Positions 3,846-50,505 of a stretch of 64,000 bases of DNA are shown piece by piece (the stretch's first letter is position 1; each line of letters begins with the position of its first letter). The DNA comes from Octopus vulgaris (Eukaryota). Position numbers and translations under genes: made by a program. Location of the stretch: NCBI GenBank assembly GCA_951406725.2, contig OX597819.1:129332001-129396000 (forward strand). Reading direction: 5' to 3'. A model generated the notes under the pieces. It was not told where the DNA came from. It saw only the letters and a program-made list of their open reading frames with translations, and did not search any database.

Positions 3846-6597
3846 TTTACGCCTATAGACGACAACATCCTGTGGTACCTATATACAGTTGAGTAACTCT
3901 TGTCATTCAATTAAGTGTTTGATGGCATATATGTGAAGCAGGGAAATAAAATTCGAATCAATTACTGAAACGTTTGGGGTTGGGGATTTCGAAAATATTA
4001 TCAAGAACCATATGAATCTAAGAGATGACTGTACTATAGCATAAATATAAATGGTTTGGTGGTTCAGGCATTGGACTGCTAAATCATAGTTCATGAGTTC
4101 AAACTCATCATGTCCATAAACGGAACTTTTTGTTGTATGCGTTTTGATCTATCTACCTGTTAAGATAATGTGCGCGACCTCTGGTTAATTTACCTATGAT
4201 AAATTATTCTTTCTTGTCCGCCTAATACCTCTGAAGCTGGCATTACCAAATCGTTTTACCAGCTCCTGAGATTCGAGAACGACGAACGTTTTACTCAACA
4301 TACATAAACACATATCAAACAAGAAAGCAACATTGAACTTACATTTTTTTTCTTTTCATAAAGTTGCAGAGACGGTAGGGAATCGAACTTTCATATTTAA
4401 TAGTTCCATTACCTTATAAGTTCACCTCCCGACGAGACCGACTTTACTCTTCATTCTTCCGAGGTCGATAAAATAAGTATCAGTATTAAATTGGCTCGAT
4501 TCTATCGACTATACACCTCCCCTTCACACCTGAGATTTTGTGCCAATGTAAAAAAAATATTATTATCATTATCTATGTGAGTTATACACTAAAGAGTGAT
4601 CTAAATGTACCTTGCAAAAATTAGCCTTGCATTTATCTAAAAACAAAAATATTACTATTTTCGTAATACAGAGAATTGAAAAATATTTATCTTTATGAAG
4701 AAAGAAGTTACTGTTTAGCTTAAATATTTCGATTTATAAAAATGAGATGTTATTGGTCGAATAGATAAAACTTTTCCTAACTATTAATTTCATCTTTCTT
4801 GTTTGTTTTCCCGTTAAACGTATTGATTCGTCCATTCATTCTCGCCATTATCTTCAGATATCCTAGTCGTGTGTTTATATATATATATATATATATATCC
4901 TTAGGCTGGGTTCGAACTCGGATATTTTTTCTATCAGTATTTTTTAAAGTTTTGGTCTTTATTTCTCAGTTCCATAATTAGTTTTATCACTTTATATTGT
5001 AACCGATTGTCGGGGATGTATTTTGAGAACTATGTTTAAATGCTAAGGTTGTGTCTAAGATTTATATTTGAGAAGTCTAAGAGAGTATTATCACAGAAAA
5101 AAGGGGGTGGTCTGTCCCAGACGGTAGAGTGAGTCAGTGTATATTCAGTTGGTACAAATTTGGCAGAGGATGACTAACAAACGTCTTCGTTAGTACACAA
5201 ATCAAAGAATAAAATAAATCCGAAAAGAAAAGTTTGGTCATCGATAACTAGATATAAGCTGTATGATCCAATTACCTCAACACATATCCATGATTGGTTG
5301 TAATGATTGTAAACACACTTGGAAATTAACTGCCAAAAAAAAGGAGCCGATTTTCAAAATTATCTTATGTCTAAAACTAGGTTTGCAAAAGAGGAAAGAA
5401 AGAAAATAATCTTTATTTCGACTTGTTCATTGCCCTATTAATCTGTGTATAATGCGAAATCTTCATACTGGAGTTGAAGATCAAAGATGGGGAAGTCACA
5501 TTAATATAGGAGGTTAAATATTTACAAAAATTTATTTGGCCAGCAACACCAATCTTTTTTCATATTATCAAGATCAGGCTGTTGCCGTTGCTCCTTCGAT
5601 TCCCTCTATAGTTTAAAAATAATTCAATACCTATTATATATCAATTTATTTTAATAAAGATTTACTTAACAATTAATTTAAAAATATATTTGTTGCTATT
5701 GGTTACTATTTTTATTTTATTTTTTCAACTATACGTTTTGTATTTGTGAGTATAATTAATACACAAGTGTGCTGCGTCCCCGACTCGGGTTTCTCAATAT
5801 TCAGAAAAATGGATTTTTTTTTTTTAATGAAATTTTCTACAAATATCTTTCAAATGGTGAAGATTACGAATATATCAAAATTTATATGAAAAAACAAATT
5901 GTTGGATGCGTACACGTAGATACTGACAAACATGACATATTTCAGCAAAATGAAACTTGAATCTTTGAAAACAAACATGATGTATGCGGCCACCATTTTT
6001 TTTTTTTTTCTTTTTCTCTCACGATTAAATTCCGATATAATTGTAATCTACGCCAACTTCATTAAAAAATATCCATTTTTCAGAAAGTTATCAAGAAATA
6101 AATTCTATTCGTGTGAACTTATCCGAAACTCCTCTCATCCCACCTCCGAAAGAGTCTTCCCAACAAACTCCGATATAATCATCGTAATCAATCTGAAAGA
6201 TATTGATTGAAAACCTCATTAAAAAATATCCATTTTTCAGGAAGTTAAGATGAAACAAAGTGGGGGCACACTTGTGTAGGTATGCATATTGGTGTGGGCA
6301 AAAAAAAAAGAAAAAAGCTTGTCTGGAACTTTGTGTGTGCGTGTGTGTGTGCGTGCCTAAAAAAAAGGAACCAGTGTTTTCTTTCGCCACGTTACAAAGT
6401 AGTTGTATATAAAAAATGTTGACAAAGTGGTTTGTATACAAGAGACAGATTGGTCAATGTTTTGGTAAGTATGCAGTTGTATTTCATTTGAAAGCAACAT
6501 CTGCGCACACAAATCGCCATTCTTTTTCAGCATTTCAGCGTTTGAATTGGACTTAGCATTATTCGCGTGATCGTATTGTACACATATACACAGTATA

Positions 6598-8756: not shown

Positions 8757-9815
8757 GTATGCATTTGTATGTGTGTGTGTATATATATATATACATAGAT
8801 AGATATAAATACAGATATGTATATATGTATGTATGTATGCATGTCTGTTTGTATGCACGTATGTATGGATACACGTGTGTTCTTGCATACAAAGTGTATG
8901 TCTTTGTATGTATGTATATATATATATACACACACATATATACACATATATATATATACACACACATATATACACACACATATATACACACACATATATA
9001 CACACATATATATATACACACATATATACACACATACACATATATATACACACATATATATATACACACATATATATACATACACACATATATACACATA
9101 TATACACATATACATACACATATAATATACACATATATATATATACATATACATACACACACATATATATATACACACACATATATATATGTACACACAT
9201 ATATATATACACACATATATATATATACACACATATATATATACACATATATATATATATATACACATATATATATATACACGCATATATATATATATAC
9301 ACACATATATATACACATATATACACACATATATATACACACATATATATACACACATATATATACACATATATACACATATATACACACACATATATAC
9401 ACACATATATACACACATATATATACACACATATATATACACACATATATACACACACATATATACACACACATATATACACACACATATATACACACAC
9501 ATATATACACACATATATATACACACATATATACACACACATATATACACACACATATACACACACATATATACACACATATATACACACATATATACAC
9601 ATATATACACACACATATATACACACACATATACACACACATATATACACACATATATACACACATATATATACACATTTATACACACACATATATACAC
9701 ACACATATACACACACACACACATATATATATATATACACATATATATATGTGTGTGTGTGTGTGTGTGTATATGTATGTATGCATGCATGCACGTATGT
9801 ATGTATGCACATATA
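8710..9815. repeat. ~1.1 kb compound (TA)/(CA) microsatellite
   Basis: Repeated atatacacac-type units. This explains the 350-450 aa HTYI/VCIY pseudo-ORFs. Confidence 0.95.
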
Positions 9816-27250: not shown

Positions 27251-27285
27251 ATTTAACGTTTCGAGCGGAGCTCTTCGTCAGAAAC
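27251..27285 (-). ncRNA. Minimal hammerhead ribozyme fold (C3-G8) in a ~200-bp TA-flanked repeat (27155-27360)
   Basis: Minus strand gttt-CTGACGA-a-gagc(tcc)gctc-GAAA-cg-T-T-aaat, with a palindromic stem III (ACGT). Confidence 0.7.
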
Positions 27286-27522: not shown

Positions 27523-27562
27523 AAGAAATTACCGGTTTCGCGTGTAGCTTTTCAAATTTCTT
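27523..27562 (-). ncRNA. Minimal hammerhead ribozyme fold, U3-A8 core variant
   Basis: Minus strand aagaaat-TTGAAAA-gc(tacac)gc-GAAA-ccgg-T-A-atttctt gives a 7-bp stem I and a palindromic CCGG stem III loop. Confidence 0.7.
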
Positions 27563-27698: not shown

Positions 27699-28949
27699 TT
27701 AATTTCTCTGTGTCAGTATGTTCGGATGGTTGAGTCTGGGTTTGTACTTTTCAATGAAGAATGTTTCCTTGTTCAGTCTCATTTGTGTTGATGATCCGAA
27801 AGCACATTGGTAAAATGGGAAGATTAAAAATTGTGGCAGTAGTTGCTTTGCGCATTTCTCAATGTGCTCACTAAAAGGTATCATTCTATATTCTGGGAAT
27901 GCAATCTGTTGTCGATGCAGTGTGCATCTGCGCCTGAGTGATAGTCCCGTGGAACCCACGTAGTCTTGGTGGCAGCCCGAGCATTTAATAACATAAATTA
28001 TGTTTTCAGAGGCACAAGTAAAGTTAGATTTGATCTTAAATTTCTGTCCCTCTTTAAAGAAGAATTCTGATCCTTCCAATAGGTTAGGACATGTTGCACA
28101 GTTCGATCTACCACATTTTTTTACTTTTGCATCCGTAATTTTAGAAGACAATTTTGCCTTTGTGAGAATCTTTTTAAGTGATTTAGGCTGTTTGTAGCTT
28201 TTAATGATTTGGTGTATGTTTAGAATTTCCTTTAATTTTGGGTTTTTATGAAGTATTGGTAAATTCTGGGTGATGATGGTGAAGGCTTCTTTGTTTCTGG
28301 GGTTGTATGTAGATATGTAAGGTAGTATTTTCGGGGAAGGTGTGTTGTTGTGTTGAACTTTTCTTAAAGTTTCTATGTTGATTTCTGTTGCACGTCTGAT
28401 CCCATCCTCTATGAGTTGAGCTGGGTAATGTCTGTCAATTAGGGTGTTTTTGAGTTCTTGCAGTCTAAAGTTCCCGGTATTTTGTTCTGACACTATTGTG
28501 CATATCCTTCTTGCAAGGTTGAAGGGGATGTTTGTTTTAGTGTGTCTTGGGTGGCATGAATTAAAAAGAAGGTATTGTTTGGCGTCTGTGGCTTTGTAAA
28601 AAATGTCTGTTTCTATTTTAAGGTTAATTTTTTTAATTAGTATATCCAAGAACGGGAGCTCCTTTTGGTTGTATTCCATTGTGAACTGTATATTTGGGTT
28701 TATGCTGTTCAATAGGTTTTTAAATTTTAGGAGTTTATCTATGTTTTCATTCCAGAGAATGAAACAATCGTCTAGGAATCGTTTCCAATTCTCTTTTATG
28801 TATTGAGAGAGGGAGTTTCCAAAGATTGATAGAGATTCCTGGTAAATGATTATTTCCATGTATCCCATTGTTAAGTTCGCAATGACTGGTGCTGCCCTTG
28901 TACCCATAGCAATTCCGGATTTTTGACGGTAAAATGTATTGTCAAACAT
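27699..28949 (-). CDS. Penelope-like reverse transcriptase / GIY-YIG endonuclease (C-terminal 416 aa, uninterrupted)
   Basis: [32 protein letters not shown], then C..C..C and NIIYVIKC..C...YVGSTG..LRRR..LH. Confidence 0.9.
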
Positions 28950-29165
28950 GAAGTGGTTATTGTGTAGGATGAATTCAACTGATTTAGTAATGAATTCCTT
29001 ACTGATCCCTTTTGGTATTTCTTCCGGAAATTGGTTAGCCAGTTGCTTAGCCAGATATAATACCTGTACATCATCTCCAAACCTTCTAATATATGTATAT
29101 ATAGGTAGGTATGTATGTATGTATATATATGTATATATATATGTATATATATATGTGTATGTATA

Positions 29166-29258
<93 letters not shown>

Positions 29259-29519
29259 GTATGTATATATATATATATATGTATGTATATTTATGTATGT
29301 ATTTATGAATATGTATATATATATATATATATGTATGTGTATATATATATTTATGTATATATATATATGTATGCATATGTATGTATATGTATGTACCTAT
29401 GTATATATATATTTATATGTATGTATATATGTATGTATATATATGTATATATATGTATGTATGTATATATGTATACATATATGTATATATGTGTGTGTGT
29501 GTATTGTGTGTGTGTGTGT

Positions 29520-32125
29520 AAAAGACAAAAAAGAGTAAAAAAACTACAGAATGCTTGTGTTATATGGTTAAAGAATATATTTAAATCGTTATGTTAGAAA
29601 AATGTTATGAAATTTTGCATATAGTAACATTGTTTTAGGAGAAATAACCGGTTTCGTATTTTCTTTTCAAATTTCTCAAATTTCTTTACCTATATTGTGT
29701 CATGTCTTCGCTATGTTGTGAAATATGGAGTTCCAGGCAGGAATAGGTAATCAATGATTTTTTCCGGTATAAGGGAGATAATCAAAAATGTTGGGAATGA
29801 CTAGGTTTTATTAATTTTACAGGATTTGGTTTAGAAGGAATAGAATGTTACAAGTGGTTAGGTTTTGCTTTATATTTTTGTCAACGAGGTAAATTTCCTT
29901 ATTCAAAAATTTTAGAAATGGTTAAGTTTTGGCTTATATTTTTCAATGAAGAAGGTTTCCTTATTTAATCTAACTCGTGTTGGTGTTCCAATGGCACATT
30001 GATAGAATGGAAAGATTACAAATTGTGGTAGCAGTTGCTTTGCGCATTTATCAATATGTTCACTAAAGGGTACCATTTTGTATTCTGGGAATGCAATCTG
30101 CTGTCGATGCAGAGTGCATCTGCGTCTGAGCGATAATCCAGTGGACCTATGTAGTTTTGGTGGCAACCCAAGCATCTTATAATATAAATCAGGTTTTCTG
30201 AAGCACAAGTAAAGTCAGATTTGATTTTAAATTTTTGATCCTCTTTGAAAAGGTATTCTGATCCTTCTAAAAGTTTTGGGCATGTTGTGCAATTTGGTTG
30301 ATCACATTTTTTCACCTTTGCATCTGTTATTTTAGAAAATAAGTTTGCTTTTGTGAGGATCTTTTTTAGTGATTTCGGTTGTTTGTAGCTTTTAATGATC
30401 TTGTGTGTGCGTAAAATCTCCTTTAATTTGGGGTCCTTATGTAGCATAGGTAAATTTTGGGTGAAGGCTTCTTTGTTTCTGGGGATGTGTGTGGATATGT
30501 ACGGCAGTATTTTTGGGGAAGGTGTGTTGCTGTGTTGAACTTTTCTTAATGTTTCTATGTCGATTTGTGTTGCATGTCTGATTCCATCCTCTGTTAGTTG
30601 AACTGGGTAGTGTCTGTCAATTATGGTGTTTTTGAGTTCTTGCAGTCTAAAGTCTCTGGTGTTTTTTTTCTAACACTATTGTGCATATATGTCAGTTTCT
30701 ATTTTTAGGTTTATTTTTTTAATTAGTATATCCAAGAATGGGAGCTCCTTTTGGTTGTACTCCATTGTGAACTCTATATTTGGGTTGACGCTGTTCAATA
30801 GTCTTTTGAATTTCAGGAGTTTATCTGTGTTTTCATTCCAGAGGATGAAACAGTCGTCTAGGAATCTTTTCCAATTTTCTTTTATGTATTGGGAAAGGGG
30901 GTTTCCAAAGGTAGATAAAGATTCCTGCTGGTATATTATTACCTCCAGGTAGCCCATTGTTAGGTTTGAAATGACTGGTGCTGCCCTAGTACCCATAACA
31001 ATTCCGGATTTTTGTCGGTAAAACGTTTTGTCGAACATGAAGCGGTTATTTCGTAGGATGAATTCAACCGATTTAGTTATGAATTCTTTACTGATCCGGA
31101 AATTGGTCCAGCCAGAACTGAAATGCCTCTAGTCCATAATTATGAGGTATACTGGTATATAAATTAACTACATCAAATGAGACCATGATTGTTTCTTCCG
31201 TAACTTTTTTTGGAAAGGGATTTAACATATCCAAGTCACCTCTGATGTGGCTATTGATGTGTTTAAGGAAGGGTTTCAGGAGGATGCCCATAAATAGACT
31301 GTTTCACAGGCTGGGCCAGCTACAATGGAATGTAGTTTTAGGTCCCCCGGGTTTGGTGTATGTATGTACGTCTTTGGTGATTTTTTAATGGATTCAGTTA
31401 CAATCTGGCTTTTGTGTATTTTTGGTAGACCATAGAAAGAGCTAGGTTTGCATTTAAAGTTTGTTAGAAAGTCAATTTCTTTGGTTGTCAGTTCTTTTCC
31501 ATGGTTTTAATTAGTGAGGACAGAGTTTTCATTATTTTATGTGGGGTGTAGTTTGTGATTTTTCGTAATGTTGACTGTCATTAAGCATGGATATTACTAG
31601 ATTTCTATAGTATAATATGTCCATTATTACCACCGCACTTCCTTTATATGCTTCCTTAATTGTTATATCTTCATCATTTTGAAGTTCTGTTAGTTCCTTC
31701 CATTGTGTAGTGCTAAAGTTTGAGTTAACTGTCTGTTTATGCATCGTGTGGTAGGGAAAGTTCTCAATGTGGTTGCAGAATTCATCAAGATTTTTATTTC
31801 TTCCTTTGTGGGGAATGTATTCACTTTTGTTTTTGACTAGTGAGTCATTTTCAGTATTGGAATTGGGTAATGCTTCTGTGAGTCTTAATTTTCTACAGAA
31901 TTCTATTATACTGTCCTTCACCTCATTTTGGTTGGCTCTGCATTGAGTTGGGATGAATTTATCCCTTTTGAGAGGATGCCTATTTTTATGTTTGAAAGGG
32001 GTTTAGTTGAAAGGTTAATTATCTATTATCTTCGGTTTTCCTGATCACCAGGTTCCAATCTGTGTCCTGGTGTCTCTGGTCTGGGGCTAAAAAATGTTGG
32101 TTGCAATTTTGTTTGCATGAGCTGT
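29520..32125 (-). mobile_element. Penelope-like retroelement copy 2 (longer, frameshifted)
   Basis: ORF pieces 31532-31921 (IKEAYKGSAVVIMD), 31088-31291 (SFDVVNLYTSIP), 30676-31038 (RFLDDCF) and 29912-30447 (GIY-YIG), homologous to copy 1. Confidence 0.92.
29639..29677 (-). ncRNA. Minimal hammerhead ribozyme fold, U3-A8 core variant (copy 2)
   Basis: Minus strand gagaaat-TTGAAAA-g(aaaata)c-GAAA-ccgg-T-T-atttctc. Stem II is reduced to 1 bp. Confidence 0.6.
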
Positions 32126-32449: not shown

Positions 32450-33104
32450 TGTATGTATGTGTGTATGTATGTATGTATGTATGTATGTGTGTGTGTATGT
32501 ATGGGAGAATGTATGTATGTATGTATGTATGTATGTATGTTTGTATGTATGTATGTATGTATGCATGCATGCATGCATGTGTGTATGTATGTATGTAAGT
32601 ATGTATGTAGGCTTGAAACTCATCATTTTTCATTTCTTCATCCTAAATAAATCTCTGCTCTTTTGACCAGTTGGGTCAGTTCAGCTTTAACGTCACTCAA
32701 CCAGTATTATAACACCCGACGTGACATGGTTATCTCCCTGTATGATTTTCAGCCATGGTCTAGCTTCGATTACCTCCCTTAATCTTGTTTATGCACGACT
32801 CGCACAGTTTTCATGCAGAAGGAGTCCCCAAACTTTTTAGACGAGTGGATCTCAACCTTTTCCTGGCCATCACCCCCTAAACCCTATTTTTGACGTAAGC
32901 TAATTGATAATCGCCCACCAAAAAATGATGACAAATATTAAATATGATATAATTACGACTAATCAACACAAAAAAATGTCGTACATGTAAATGCAAAACC
33001 AAAACGAATTGAAATAAAACTTTATTTTAGATTGTGGAAGGTGTTTGTAAGTCTTTTAAGAAACACACAAAAACCGTTAGATTCACTTCAACATTTAAAT
33101 TTAA

Positions 33105-33155
33105 TTTGTCAAAATATTTTCGTCGCTTTGAAACCGCGACCTGTTCGCTGACAAA
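33105..33155 (-). ncRNA. Minimal hammerhead-like fold with a G3-C8 core in a ~130-bp insertion (33031-33161)
   Basis: Minus strand tttgtca-GCGAACA-g-gtcgc(ggtttcaaa)gcgac-GAAA-atat-T-T-tgacaaa. Position 4 is C instead of U. Confidence 0.55.
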
Positions 33156-34251
33156 ACTTCGTGAGCGCTGAAATTGGTGATGTTCCGCTAAAAAGTTCTC
33201 GGTCAGGCTTAATGCTACTCAAACAAATACGAATATCTCCATGTGAAATAATGTCGAATCTGTTTCATTCCTTCTGCAAAAGGTGATGGCCAGTACGAAA
33301 TCCAGCTTCCACAAGATAAGATGTCGGGAACCTCAGACAATCTTAATTTGAAATTCATCATTACATTACATCTCGATGGTTTCCTCCTGGATATTTCCGT
33401 ATGCCCTGTGAAGATCACAATCGAATGGGTCAATCCATCCATGGCTGAATAGTGGAGTTAAACAAATCGGCAAATCTGGTTTCTGAATCATTTTCCAAGG
33501 CTGACAGATGGTCGCAATAAATACCTCTGTCATTTTCACATCAGTCGATTTCCGCTAGTTTGCGCATATCATGAAACTGTCTTAGTTTTAAGTTAACTTG
33601 AAAAAGACTGAGTTTTTTCTACAAAAGCTCTCATCACCCGTTGACAGTCTTTCAGCGTTATCATTTTCCCCTGCAGCAGAAGAGAGACCTCGTTCAGCTT
33701 TATGAAAATCCAACTAAGATAGCGTATGTTCTTCTTTTGAGCTTGAATTTCGGCGGCTAAGTCTGAGTATCCTTCTGTTCGTAAGAATGCAACTATTGCA
33801 CTAAGTAAGTTTACAAAACTTTCCAAGCCGTTGTCTTTGGATATCCAACGGACATGGGTTTGCTAAAGAAGACTTACATATTGTTCATCAGCATCGACAC
33901 AAAATTTTCGAAAGTGAGGGTCACATTTGCTGTTAGATTTAATTTTGTTTATTGTTTTTATAACAGTGTTCACTGATTGATTTAGAATAGGGCTTATATT
34001 TTTGGCCACGAGGTTATGCCTGTGTAGCACATAGTGTATAACTGGAATTTTTTAATGAGAGATAAATCGTTTGTGTCTCCCAAACATAGACACTGCACCA
34101 TCAGTAGCACATGATAAGTTTTCATAATGTGGAATTTCTTTTTCTTCAAAAAACGTTCTCACTGCAGAAAATATAGAAGGGTCCGTTGTGTCAGTCTCCA
34201 ACAGTTTTACAAATAATAAATCTTTTAATAATGCAGTTTCTATCAAAATAT

Positions 34252-34320
34252 CGTACATATCCCATTAAAAGGGCCTTATTGTCATATTAACAATAAGGCC
34301 CTTTTAATGGGATATGTACG
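34252..34320. repeat. Perfect 31-bp inverted repeat (7-nt loop) inside the hAT transposase
   Basis: cgtacatatcccattaaaagggccttattgt / acaataaggcccttttaatgggatatgtacg. Confidence 0.95.
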
Positions 34321-35459
34321 TGCTTTCGTCAGTTTGAATAGAAAAATTCGTTGTTTTCAATCTTTGAATTAGCACGTCTTCGATATGACCTGACATTTCA
34401 TCAATTCTCCTGCGGATAGAATCATTACTCAAAAGTAGAGCTTTAATGATAGGTGAAGGATCTTGATTCATAACTTCTGATATTACTGCTTCTAATGCGA
34501 ACAGAATGATCTTTTCAGCTACCGTATGGGCACTACCTGTTTTGGTAATAATTTCTGAAATTGTGTAGGAAGCAATCAGTCCACCGTCATTAATTTTTGC
34601 CTGTTTCTTAAATAATGATTTAACAGTATTCCGATTTTCAAAATCAGTTTTCAATCCCTCAAAATATTTGATAGGCTTACCGACTTTTTCAAATTGTCTT
34701 CTCATGTGATCATAAAATCGAGAGGGTTTCATAGTTTCATTGGACAAAGATTGATGACACATGAGACGAAAGGGCTGCTTTGAGTCTGTAGAGTTCTGGA
34801 TAAAACCATATTGTAAGTACTCATCGATATACTGTCGACACTTCTTTTTCGCCGAGCCTGTCATAAAAAGTGGGTGAGAACGAATGCAGATTCGTAAACA
34901 CTAAACTGACTATCATAGCTGAGCCCGACGGTTAAGAGAGAGAACGTCAAATTCAGGCGAAGCAACTCGTAGCAGTTGTCAACATTTTGTATGTAGTGAA
35001 GAATTAAGTGTACCTATAACAAATTAAGTCCAGTGAATAAATTATTTTTAATTATGGATCGGTTCACGTATTTGTTTACTTTAAAGACACACACATTCCA
35101 TTTGCATCTGTTTTCCATGATACACACCTAACCACTACATATTCAATAGGACACGCAGTCCGACAGCCAGTGTCATAGCAACAAGGGTAAGAAGTCCAGT
35201 GATGAATGAATGATTATAAATCGATGAACTAAATCCTGGAAGATAATGCACTTATTGAGGCGCATTGGTTCTGTATTTGAATGAAGGAAAAAAGTTGGTT
35301 TTAAGGCTTGACCGTAGTTATTGAGGAGAGCCCTTGTCATGCACTGGATGTGTGATTGCCTGTTGTGAATACAGTCGCCGATCGAAGACTGCATTCATCG
35401 CCCTCACTCCACCGCACCACTAAATTTGATTTTCGCCCCTGCTTGAGAACCAGTTTTTG

Positions 35460-47800: not shown

Positions 47801-48296
47801 ACCAGTTGAACCGTCCAACCCATACTAGCATGGAAAGCAGACGTTAAACGATGATGATGATGATATTACATATATACACACACACACATATGTATGTGTA
47901 TCATCATCATCATCATTGTTTAATGTCCGCTTTCCATGCTAGCATGGGTTGGACGGTTCAACTGGGGTCTGGGAAGCCAGAAGGCTGCACCAGGCCCAGT
48001 CTGATCTGGCAGTGTTTCTACGGCTGAACGCCCTTCCTAACGCCAACCACTCAGTGAGTGTAGTGGGTGCTTTTTACATGCCACCTGCACAGGTGCCAGA
48101 CGAGGCTGGCAAACGGCCACGATTGGATGGTGCTTTTTACGTGCCACTGGCATGGGGGCCAGACGAGGCTGGCAACGGCCACAATCGGATGGTGCTTTTT
48201 ACGTGCCACCGGCACAGAGGCCAGTCAGGGCGGCACTGGCAACAGCCACGTTTGGATGGTGCTTCTTACGTGCCACCGGCACTGGTATCACAGCTA

Positions 48297-48384: not shown

Positions 48385-50234
48385 TAGTAAGGTGAGAGTT
48401 GGCAATGATTACAGTGAAGAATTCCGGGTAGAGGTAGGAGTCCAAGGTTCAGTCCTCAGCTCCCTCCTATTTATCATAGTTCTCCAGGCAATAACAGAGG
48501 AATTCAAGACTGGATGCCCCTAAGAGCTCCTCTATGCTGACGACCTTGCTCTAATTGCTGAGTCACTATCAGAACTGGAGGAGAAGTTTCAGGTGTGGAA
48601 TCAAGGATTAGAATTGAAGGGCCTTAGAGTCAACCTAGCTAAAACAAAAGTACTAATAAGTAGGAAGGTAGACAAACCACAAACGCCTTCAGGTAGATGG
48701 CCCTGCTCGATCTGTAGAAAAGGCATAGGTAGAAACTCTATAGGATGTACCCAGTGTAAGCTATGGACACATAAGAGGTGCAGCAATGTCAAAGGAAGGC
48801 TAACTAGGAAAATAGTTTTTGTATGTGGCAGATGCTCAGGAGCAATAAACACTGAAAATCTGCAGAAAACAACTTCCATCACTTTCCAGGGAGAAAAACT
48901 AAAAGTAGTTGATAGTTTCCGTTACCTAGGTAACCAAGTCAGTAGCGGGGGTGGGTGTGCTGAAAGTGTAACTGCTAGAGTAAGAATAGCCTGGGCAAAG
49001 TTCAGGGAGCTCTTACCTCTGCTGGTGACAAAAGGCCTCTTGCTCAGAGTAAAAGGCAGACTGTATGATGCATGTGTACGAACTGCCATGCTACATGGCA
49101 GTGAAACATGGGTCGTGACTGCTGAGGATGTGCGTAAACTTGCAAGAAATGAAGCCAGTATGCTCCGATGGATGTGTAATGTCAGTGTTCATACTCGACA
49201 GAGTGTAAGTACCTTCAGAAAAAAGTTGGACCTAAGAAGCATCAGCTGTAGTGTGCAAGAGAGACGATTGCGCTGGTATGGTCATGTGGCGAGAATGGAT
49301 GAAGATAGGTGTGTGAAAAAGTGCCAATCCCAAGCAGTTGAGGGAACCCGTGGAAGAGGTAGACCCAGGAAAACCTGGGATGAGGTGGTGAAGCATGACC
49401 TTTGAACATTAGGCCTCACCGAGGCAATGACTAGAGACCGAGACCTTTGGAAGTATGCTGTGCATGAGAAGACCCGGCAGGACCAGTGAGTCCATCCCGT
49501 ATTCCTTGCCAGGGATGTAGCCAGCCCACTTATGCATGCCTTTCCTTCCTTGGACACGCGAAGACCTGTTGAGGCAAGCGAAGTTGAAATCGAACCTCAT
49601 CCGACAACAGGCACCAATGCCAACCTCCCTTCATTGGACACTAAACTGCTTGTGAAGACCTGTTGGGGCAAGTGAAATCGGAATCGAAATTGAACCAATC
49701 CTATGACTGGCACCCGGCAGTTGTCAGGGCCGCTGGACTGACTCCTGTGCAGGTGGCAAGTAAAGAAACACTGTTTTGACCCTGTGTTTGAGGAGACCTA
49801 TTGAGTCAAGTACATCAACATCAAAATCAATGGAAATTGTAGTTGTGATCCCTGTGCCAGTGGCACGTAAAAAGCACCAACCGATCGTGGCCATTGCCAG
49901 CCTCGCCTGACTCCTGTGCCAGTGGCATGTAAAAAGCACCATCTGAACGTGGCCAATGCCAGCACCGCCTTGACTATCTTCGGTGCCGGCGGCACGTAAA
50001 AAGCACCAATCCAATCGTGGCCGTTGCCAGCCTCGCCTGGCACCTGTGCCAGTGGCATGTAAAAAGTATCCACTACACTCACGGAGTGGTTGGCGTTAAG
50101 AAGGGCATCCAGCTGTAGAAACACTGCCAGATCAAACTTGGCCTGGTGCAGCCTTCTGGCTTCCCAGATCCCCGGTCAAACCATCCAACCCATGCTAGCA
50201 TGGAGAACGGACGTTAAACGATGATGATGATGAT
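48385..50234 (+). mobile_element. 5'-truncated RTE-clade LINE: RT C-terminal half, PHD-like insert, and long 3' UTR with (gat)n tail
   Basis: QGSVLS.LLF and LLYADDL (~48440-48550, preceded by a stop). ORF 48593-49405 contains FRYLG, LHGSETW, RLRWYGHVARM and RGRGRPRKTW. Confidence 0.92.
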
Positions 50235-50264
50235 ATTACATATATACACACATATGTATGTGTA

Positions 50265-50505
50265 TCATCATCATCATCGTTTAACATCCGCTTTCAATGC
50301 TAGCATGGGTTGGACAGTTCAACTGGGGTCTGGGAAGCCAGAAGGCTGCACCAGGCTCCAATCTTATCTGGCAGTGTTTCTACAGCTGGATGCCCTTCCT
50401 AATGCCAACCACTCCGTGAGTATAGTGGGTGCTTTTTACGTGCCACCGGCACAGGTGCCAGACGAGGCTGGAAAACGGCCACGATTGGATGGTGCTTTTT
50501 ACGTG
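50265..50505 (-). mobile_element. RTE 3' UTR copy, tail-to-tail with the preceding LINE
   Basis: catcatcatcgtttaac...ggtgctttttacgtgcc. Confidence 0.85.

What the first reader, a model, noticed from the sequence alone, without database searches (positions are those of the whole stretch)
33031..33161. Third hammerhead core variant (G3-C8) in a 130-bp insert at the hAT stop codon
Seen: a 7-bp stem I (tttgtca/tgacaaa), core GCGAACA, a 5-bp stem II (gtcgc/gcgac), GAAA, a palindromic ATAT loop and a UU site. The insert appears to split the transposase terminus (...QRSH) from its taa/aataaa. Together with the C-G and U-A forms, one window holds three different 3-8 pairs. This suggests a hidden diversity of variant minimal hammerheads in this genome. 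U4 is C here, so this copy may be inactive.
Basis: partly seen in the sequence, partly recalled or inferred. Interest (0 to 1): 0.7.

Follow-up and report, generated by a model that had tools for sequence, protein, structure and literature searches.

The report
Swapped-core hammerhead in Penelope retrotransposon end
This insert is a decayed end-piece of a Penelope-type jumping gene whose thousands of copies carry a hammerhead-shaped RNA motif with two paired core letters swapped (G3-C8 instead of C3-G8); it is likely a natural variant of a slow self-cutting RNA, but cutting is untested and this copy is predicted to be crippled.

Summary
The motif is real (minus strand, 33155-33105). The insert is a 130-bp end fragment of a Penelope-like element (PLE): hammerhead, 5' UTR and first ORF codons. 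The family has 4,514 exact pattern matches; 97 of the first 100 read GUGAACA, so U4C here is decay. All 10 RT/GIY-YIG ORF loci fetched carry the identical G3-C8 motif about 1 kb downstream. Related families share stem II but pair C3-G8, and an older family also has G3-C8, so the pair flipped once and persisted. In the papers I could search G3-C8 appears only as an engineered, partly active mutant; Lünse 2017 could not be read. Against strong function: copies span the predicted cut site (1 of 100 starts there, ambiguously), G3·G8 mismatched copies are over-represented, and a large sister family has A9C. The hAT detail is partly wrong: the true stop is TAG, lost with about 25 bp at the insertion; the hAT was already broken. 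This scan noted the same family before at other places in this genome, and similar motifs in other genomes. Verdict: new variant of a known kind; cleavage untested.

The parts
33034..33163 (-). End fragment of a Penelope-like element (part of pLTR, 5' UTR, first ORF codons); 33161-33163 (CAC) is shared with the hAT target
   Evidence: 5 differences in 130 bases from the majority of the 29 other best hits; same region precedes and follows the ORF in L147
33105..33155 (-). Minimal type I hammerhead fold with G3-C8 core pair; this copy has U4C
33142..33148 (-). Core strand G3 C4 G5 A6 A7 C8 A9 (family: G3 U4 G5 A6 A7 C8 A9)
33141..33141 (-). Extra nucleotide (G) between position 9 and stem II
   Evidence: present in all 18 aligned family representatives
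33122..33140 (-). Stem II (5 bp) with 9-nt loop; the loop varies between subfamilies, the stem does not
33112..33121 (-). GAAA, self-complementary AAUAUU (helix III only as a dimer) and U17; predicted cut between 33112 and 33111
   Evidence: sequence; numbering by analogy to PMC4209133
33034..33055 (-). Remnant of the first seven ORF codons; start ATG decayed to AAG
   Evidence: L147 reads MAYKHLP... here and runs into the PLE ORF; differences
33161..35452 (-). Decayed transposase-bearing element (FAM200-like; hAT assignment recalled), upstream of the insert
32837..33033 (-). 3' terminal part of the same hAT element, resuming about 25 bp after its lost TAG
27523..27562 (-). U3-A8 minimal hammerhead motif of another PLE family, behind the ORF remnant at 27699-29396
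27251..27285 (-). C3-G8 minimal hammerhead motif of a third repeat
   Evidence: family not examined

Best explanation
The insert is a decayed end fragment of a Penelope-like retrotransposon family whose pseudo-LTR carries a hammerhead fold with a G3-C8 core pair, likely a slow ribozyme that would cut only as a dimer or with help from the element's protein. Shown: family, copy number, ORF linkage, stems, and the 3-8 pair as G-C in two families and C-G in three related groups. Inferred: transcription starts about 20 nt upstream of stem I; reverse transcription starts inside the first ORF codons (two fixed 3' ends), which gives thousands of short pLTR copies and head-to-head pairs; the C3-G8 to G3-C8 flip happened once and was kept by selection for the core pair; U17 avoids a trapping G3-C17 pair; most copied RNAs were uncut. 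This copy landed in an already broken hAT with about 25 bp of target lost and no duplication, and U4C is predicted to reduce its activity strongly.
For: 4,514 matches to a stem I/core/stem II pattern, 0 in the reversed control; 97 of the first 100 GUGAACA. Off-consensus counts: 173 non-G3, 123 non-U4, 342 non-C8. 530-aa ORF with YVDD and GIY-YIG above the Pfam cutoff about 1.1 kb upstream, same strand. ORF-first test: 10 of 10 loci carry the motif 971-1038 bp after the ORF end; all 17 motifs identical. L147 shows pLTR-ORF-pLTR. 12 of 16 loci taken in listing order are head-to-head pairs, 11 of them with one short and one long end. Sister family (54% protein identity) has the homologous motif with C3-G8 in 8 of 10 loci; 87 of the first 100 of 5,759 non-G3 matches are C3-G8. 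Older family: 17 of 26 G3-C8 with both positions free, and a different N7. With 3 and 8 masked, G3 and C3 families split at 100% UFBoot. Pair counts on 18 representatives: G-C 10, C-G 8, none unpaired; a stem II pair varies A-U/G-C/G-U. Engineered C3G/G8C partly restores a PLE hammerhead, which needs its protein (PMC11167929); the G:C swap is the only rescuing double mutant in this core region (PMC9901934).
Against: No cleavage data. Of the first 100 of 5,080 copies selected by sequence downstream of the cut site, 1 starts at the site and it is explained by stem I homology in a fold-back. 41 of the first 100 non-C8 copies are G3·G8, about 140 in all against about 19 G3C copies, so mismatched sources were probably copied. 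The young sister family has A9C in most listed copies. The extra nucleotide is G where the published consensus has A, C or U. The fold program extends stem I with a G3·U17 pair, and the designed double hammerhead (-27.0 and -28.8 kcal/mol) is less stable than two monomers (-27.8 and -30.8). The covariation at 3-8 is one evolutionary event, and the families were collected with patterns that fix stem II and GAAA.
Confidence: 0.65

Rival explanations
1. Same element, but the motif is a non-cutting descendant of a hammerhead, kept as a structural 5' leader (protein binding, folding or translation) or simply inherited; the paired flip at 3 and 8 is incidental or structural.
For: Copies span the cut site; G3·G8 excess; A9C sister family amplified; cleavage not needed for insertion in vitro and no RNA ends at the site in anole data (PMC11167929); 12 of 27 short copies have an extra G at a fixed 5' start upstream of the motif, which fits capped uncut templates.
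Against: U4, G5, A6, A9, GAAA and U16.1 are kept in both G3 families while N7 and loop II change; the double change is the one known to preserve catalysis.
Confidence: 0.28
2. The 130-210 bp unit is an independent retrozyme or SINE-like element rather than a PLE end.
For: Short copies far outnumber ORF-bearing ones; only 1 of the first 100 long ends continues into the ORF.
Against: The unit contains the PLE's own start codons and lies on both sides of the ORF; copies are head-to-head or single, not head-to-tail monomer arrays.
Confidence: 0.04
3. Chance resemblance, or a G3/C8 state private to this decayed copy.
For: Fold z-score of this copy is modest (-1.97).
Against: G3-C8 is the majority in thousands of copies and the motif sits where the sister family has a C3-G8 hammerhead.
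Confidence: 0.01

Closest known systems
Minimal type I hammerheads (min-HHR) of metazoan Penelope-like elements (Cervera and de la Peña 2014, PMC4209133; parts 1-2 of 4 of the text read, one of two supplements searched)
   Same: Type I topology, no stable helix III, palindromic loop 3, extra nucleotide between 9 and 10.1, G10.1-C11.1, position in the pLTR, many solitary or opposite-strand copies.
   Different: 3-8 pair is G-C; that paper reports C3-G8 and U3-A8 only. Extra nucleotide is G (their consensus H). Stem I is 7 bp rather than 4-5.
PAc (Poseidon, Anolis) element and its hammerhead (Frangieh et al. 2024, PMC11167929; parts 1-2 of 4 read)
   Same: RT plus C-terminal GIY-YIG; hammerhead at the pLTR-ORF junction; two fixed 3' ends inside the ORF start; AT-rich targets.
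   Different: PAc is naturally C3-G8 and G3-C8 was made in the lab; here the ATG lies about 55 nt after the cut site and the ends are about 55-60 nt apart; the ORF has a Cys-rich linker as described for Neptune/Nematis.
Natural U3-A8 hammerheads (Perreault et al. 2011, PMC3088659; passages read)
   Same: Natural covariation of the 3-8 core pair.
   Different: U3-A8 needs two transitions through a U·G wobble; G3-C8 needs two transversions through a mismatch and puts a pyrimidine at position 8.
Small PLE hammerhead variants that cleave as dimers (Lünse, Weinberg, Breaker 2017; title seen in reference lists only)
   Same: Diminished stem III, PLE association (from the title and recall).
   Different: Cannot tell whether it already lists G3-C8; the text was not held.

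Membership tests
Penelope-like element (C-terminal EN) | Single ORF with RT followed by GIY-YIG endonuclease | tested here: met
   YVDD motif and PF01541 above cutoff in L104 and L145 ORFs; homologues labelled RT-domain proteins. Pfam RVT_1 itself did not score.
Penelope-like element (C-terminal EN) | Pseudo-LTR repeated on both sides of the ORF | tested here: met
   L147: motif at 4742, ORF start, ORF, motif at 9003
Penelope-like element (C-terminal EN) | Inverted truncated copy at the 5' side and optional tail at one end | tested here: met
   12 of 16 loci head-to-head; 11 of 12 with one short and one long end; sharp long end
Neptune/Nematis clades | Cys-rich linker between RT and EN; placement in an RT tree | tested here: inconclusive
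   C-x3-C-x2-C-x7-C linker seen; no named references for a tree
PLE minimal hammerhead | Stems I and II closing the core, G10.1-C11.1 | tested here: met
PLE minimal hammerhead | Literal core CUGANGA | tested here: not met
   Family GUGAACA; this copy GCGAACA; hence filed as a variant
PLE minimal hammerhead | Watson-Crick pair between positions 3 and 8 | tested here: met
   G-C 10, C-G 8 of 18 representatives; genome counts
PLE minimal hammerhead | Extra nucleotide 9/10.1, GAAA, palindromic loop 3, UH | tested here: met
   Extra G, GAAA, AAUAUU, U17; G is outside the published H
PLE minimal hammerhead | Site-specific self-cleavage (dimer or protein-assisted) | not testable with these tools
   No assay; no run on record as RNA with raw reads
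Non-LTR retrozyme | Head-to-tail monomers without ORF | tested here: not met
   Copies are PLE ends, single or head-to-head

The most novel reading that the evidence does not exclude
A PLE lineage fixed a natural, catalytically active G3-C8 hammerhead by crossing a mismatch valley once, kept it through at least two amplification waves, and pairs it with U17 to avoid a G3-C17 trap; no natural G3-C8 hammerhead has been described, and standard C3-G8/U3-A8 descriptors miss thousands of copies per genome.
Probability: 0.4. Interest if true: 0.6.

Novelty: new variant of a known kind. Interest (0 to 1): 0.42.

Why it matters
It would add a third natural pairing at the hammerhead's 3-8 core position, so far seen by me only as a lab mutant, and show that search descriptors should free these positions. 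One genome offers a matched natural series on the same stem II scaffold (C3-G8, C3-G8 with A9C, G3-C8, G3·G8) together with long open ORFs. That makes the open question of whether PLE hammerheads must cut for retrotransposition directly testable. The window copy itself is an ordinary dead fragment.

Tried and rejected
Rfam scan of the window: no hammerhead among the 150 best of 290 matches shown; these are almost all microsatellite-driven miRNA hits. First scans needed stem II of 3 bp or more and missed the U3-A8 motif. Four copies sharing a downstream continuation (L066-L069) are not the ORF; three also share upstream flank, so they are a larger repeat carrying one insertion. Metagenome scan: 1 weak locus, not informative. 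Sequencing runs: no RNA holder listed and contigs only, so nothing on expression or cut ends. Intron reading of the acceptor-like sequence upstream of the motif (535 matches): no shared exon among 27 short copies, but an extra G in 12, so a transcription start is preferred; splicing not excluded. A C3-G8 subset within the young family: none among the first 100 of 173 non-G3 copies. A3-U8 in 4 of those 100 is near chance. Literature: nine full-text searches found no natural G3-C8 hammerhead; Lünse 2017, Przybilski and Hammann 2007 and Hammann 2012 were not held, and one supplement of PMC4209133 could not be searched, so absence from print is not established. Look-ups of earlier findings by sequence and by place returned nothing.

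Full report
Observation. On the minus strand, 33155-33105 reads as a type I hammerhead: 7-bp stem I, core GCGAACA, one extra G, 5-bp stem II, GAAA, the palindrome AAUAUU and U17. Both stems are in the predicted fold (-13.9 kcal/mol, z -1.97, 9 of 200 shuffles as good; intact copies z -3.05 and -2.43). A descriptor with these stem lengths and any Watson-Crick 3-8 pair gave 1 hit in the window and 0 in 40 shuffled windows. The other two motifs are at 27562-27523 (U3-A8) and 27285-27251 (C3-G8). U3-A8 is its family's norm: 90 of the first 100 of 1,896 matches, with 9 U3·G8 and 1 G3.

The hAT junction. The host element spans about 32837-35452, has FAM200-like homologues (hAT assignment recalled) and many stops. 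Fourteen related loci lack the insert. They continue from the last codons directly to TAG, then about 30 bases to AATAAAG; 9 of the 12 rows matched (two are the same locus) keep a stop at that codon. In the window about 25 of these bases, including the TAG, are gone, there is no target duplication, and CAC is shared at the left junction. The insert spans 33034-33163.

The family. The genome is 2.8 Gb; a sister element's ORF is 98.7% identical to a protein labelled Octopus vulgaris. A pattern fixing G3 but leaving positions 4 and 8 free has 4,514 matches (reversed control 0); the first 100 are 97 GUGAACA, 2 GUGAAUA and 1 GUGAAGA. Complementary patterns give 173 non-G3, 342 non-C8 and 123 non-U4 copies, the last including this one. 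The window copy differs at 5 of 130 bases from the majority of the 29 other best hits, including U4C and the start ATG. In 146 aligned arms (a sample enriched by me for ORF-linked and non-C8 copies), subfamily differences fall in loop II and the flanks, plus one A-to-G in stem I that keeps a wobble. Contigs of runs under other organism codes hold the element; no other letter was listed at the core (8 rows not shown) and loose-end consensus lines in three runs read GUGAACA.

Link to a Penelope ORF. Copies with long upstream arms lead to a 530-aa frame with YVDD and a GIY-YIG domain above the Pfam cutoff, about 1.1 kb upstream on the same strand. Starting from the ORF instead, I fetched 10 of the closest hits, chosen for long open frames: all 10 carry the motif 971-1038 bp after the ORF end, and all 17 motifs found are identical with U4 intact. 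L147 has pLTR with motif, ATG about 55 nt after the cut site, ORF (broken in this copy) and a second pLTR. So the insert is hammerhead, 5' UTR and seven codons. Of 16 loci taken in listing order, 12 are head-to-head pairs, 11 with one arm ending about 30-37 nt and the other about 90 nt into the ORF; the long end is sharp and followed by AT-rich DNA (2,821 matches). This matches the PLE tail, shown for PAc to mark internal reverse-transcription starts (PMC11167929). The window copy stops about 10 nt short of the short end and lacks the first few bases, so end-joining capture or later deletion is inferred.

Is the flipped pair selected? A sister family (54% identity over the RT-EN region) has at the homologous place CUGAUGC with the same extra G and a related stem II, in 8 of 10 loci. 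A stem II-anchored pattern excluding G3 has 5,759 matches, 87 of the first 100 C3-G8, including fully canonical CUGAAGA families. An older, much more diverged family is also G3-C8, with N7 = C or U: 17 of 26 when both positions are free, 4 with G3 only, 3 with C8 only, 2 with G8 and neither. In a tree of 37 copies with positions 3 and 8 masked, the 21 copies from the G3 families and 16 from the C3 families split at 100% UFBoot (short alignment, unrooted). On 18 representatives the 3-8 pair is G-C 10 and C-G 8 with none unpaired, and one stem II pair varies A-U/G-C/G-U; covariation score 0.341 against 0.170 shuffled, but sequences are related and stem I of the six old-family rows was misaligned. 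This is one flip, direction inferred from C3-G8 being the general state. Both G3 families have U17; a G3-C8 mutant is reported more active without C17 (PMC3884650, passage, data not shown there).

Evidence against strong function. Among the first 100 of 5,080 copies selected downstream of the cut site, 1 begins there and is explained by stem I homology. Of 27 short copies without the upstream arm, 12 have G in place of the templated C just before a fixed start about 20 nt upstream of stem I, with no shared sequence beyond, which fits capped, uncut templates (inference). G3·G8 copies number about 140 (41 of 100 of 342) against about 19 G3C (11 of 100 of 173), so mismatched sources were probably copied. 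The young sister family spread with A9C. The designed double hammerhead is 1-2 kcal/mol less stable than two monomers in ViennaRNA, which ignores tertiary contacts.

Literature. Cervera and de la Peña 2014 define the min-HHR, report U3-A8 and low activity even as dimers. Perreault 2011 report natural U3-A8 (passages). Frangieh 2024 show that engineered C3G/G8C partly restores a PLE hammerhead, that it needs protein, and that cutting is not needed for insertion in vitro. Roberts 2023 find the G:C swap the only rescuing double mutant in this core region (passages). Craig 2021 describe inverted copies, tails and the Cys linker (passages). I also read part 1 of 5 of a 2026 retrozyme preprint and passages of PMC6155905 and PMC10085705. 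Nine searches found no natural G3-C8; the most relevant paper, Lünse 2017, was not held. Earlier AI notes of this scan describe the same family at other places in this genome and similar motifs elsewhere; I had reached the main reading before the look-up and count them as no support.

Verdict. PLE end fragment: near certain. Family-level G3-C8 hammerhead fold: shown. Cutting by the family form: about 0.6. Cutting by this copy: unlikely, though U4C retains some activity in one viroid (PMC3088659). New variant of a known kind; interest 0.42.

Noticed in passing
L155-L164; G000 genome-wide: A young sister PLE family with open frames up to 1,312 aa carries a hammerhead with A9C (CUGAUGC) in most listed copies; one older-looking copy (L205) has A9.
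   Followed up: partly
G000 genome-wide: G3·G8 mismatched copies of the family are about seven times commoner than the mirror transversion, suggesting amplified sources with a broken 3-8 pair.
   Followed up: partly
G000 genome-wide: The U3-A8 family includes a U3·G8 sub-lineage (9 of the first 100), a possible wobble intermediate.
   Followed up: no
L048, L057, L059, L172; 21 of the first 100 copies share one identical fold-back junction and some share flanks, so one head-to-head pair was amplified as a unit.
   Followed up: no
L066-L068: An old repeat of more than 2 kb carries a head-to-head pair of the family and was itself multiplied.
   Followed up: partly
L147:4700-4730; 535 matches: Sequence just upstream of the motif looks like both a branch point with 3' splice site and an initiator; short copies often gain an extra G there.
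   Followed up: partly
window 34246-34326: Near-perfect palindrome inside the hAT coding region, apparently a fold-back duplication.
   Followed up: no
window 27699-32002 (minus strand): Two partial tandem copies of another Penelope-like ORF (RT and GIY-YIG with Cys linker), each followed by a U3-A8 motif (29685-29640 degenerate).
   Followed up: partly
window 47808-47959 and about 50189-50310: Long inverted repeats picked up by miRNA models; not examined.
   Followed up: no
G000:C2:171239159-171246116: Three same-strand copies 3.4 kb apart, all G3·A8, without the family's ORF; probably a local tandem duplication.
   Followed up: partly
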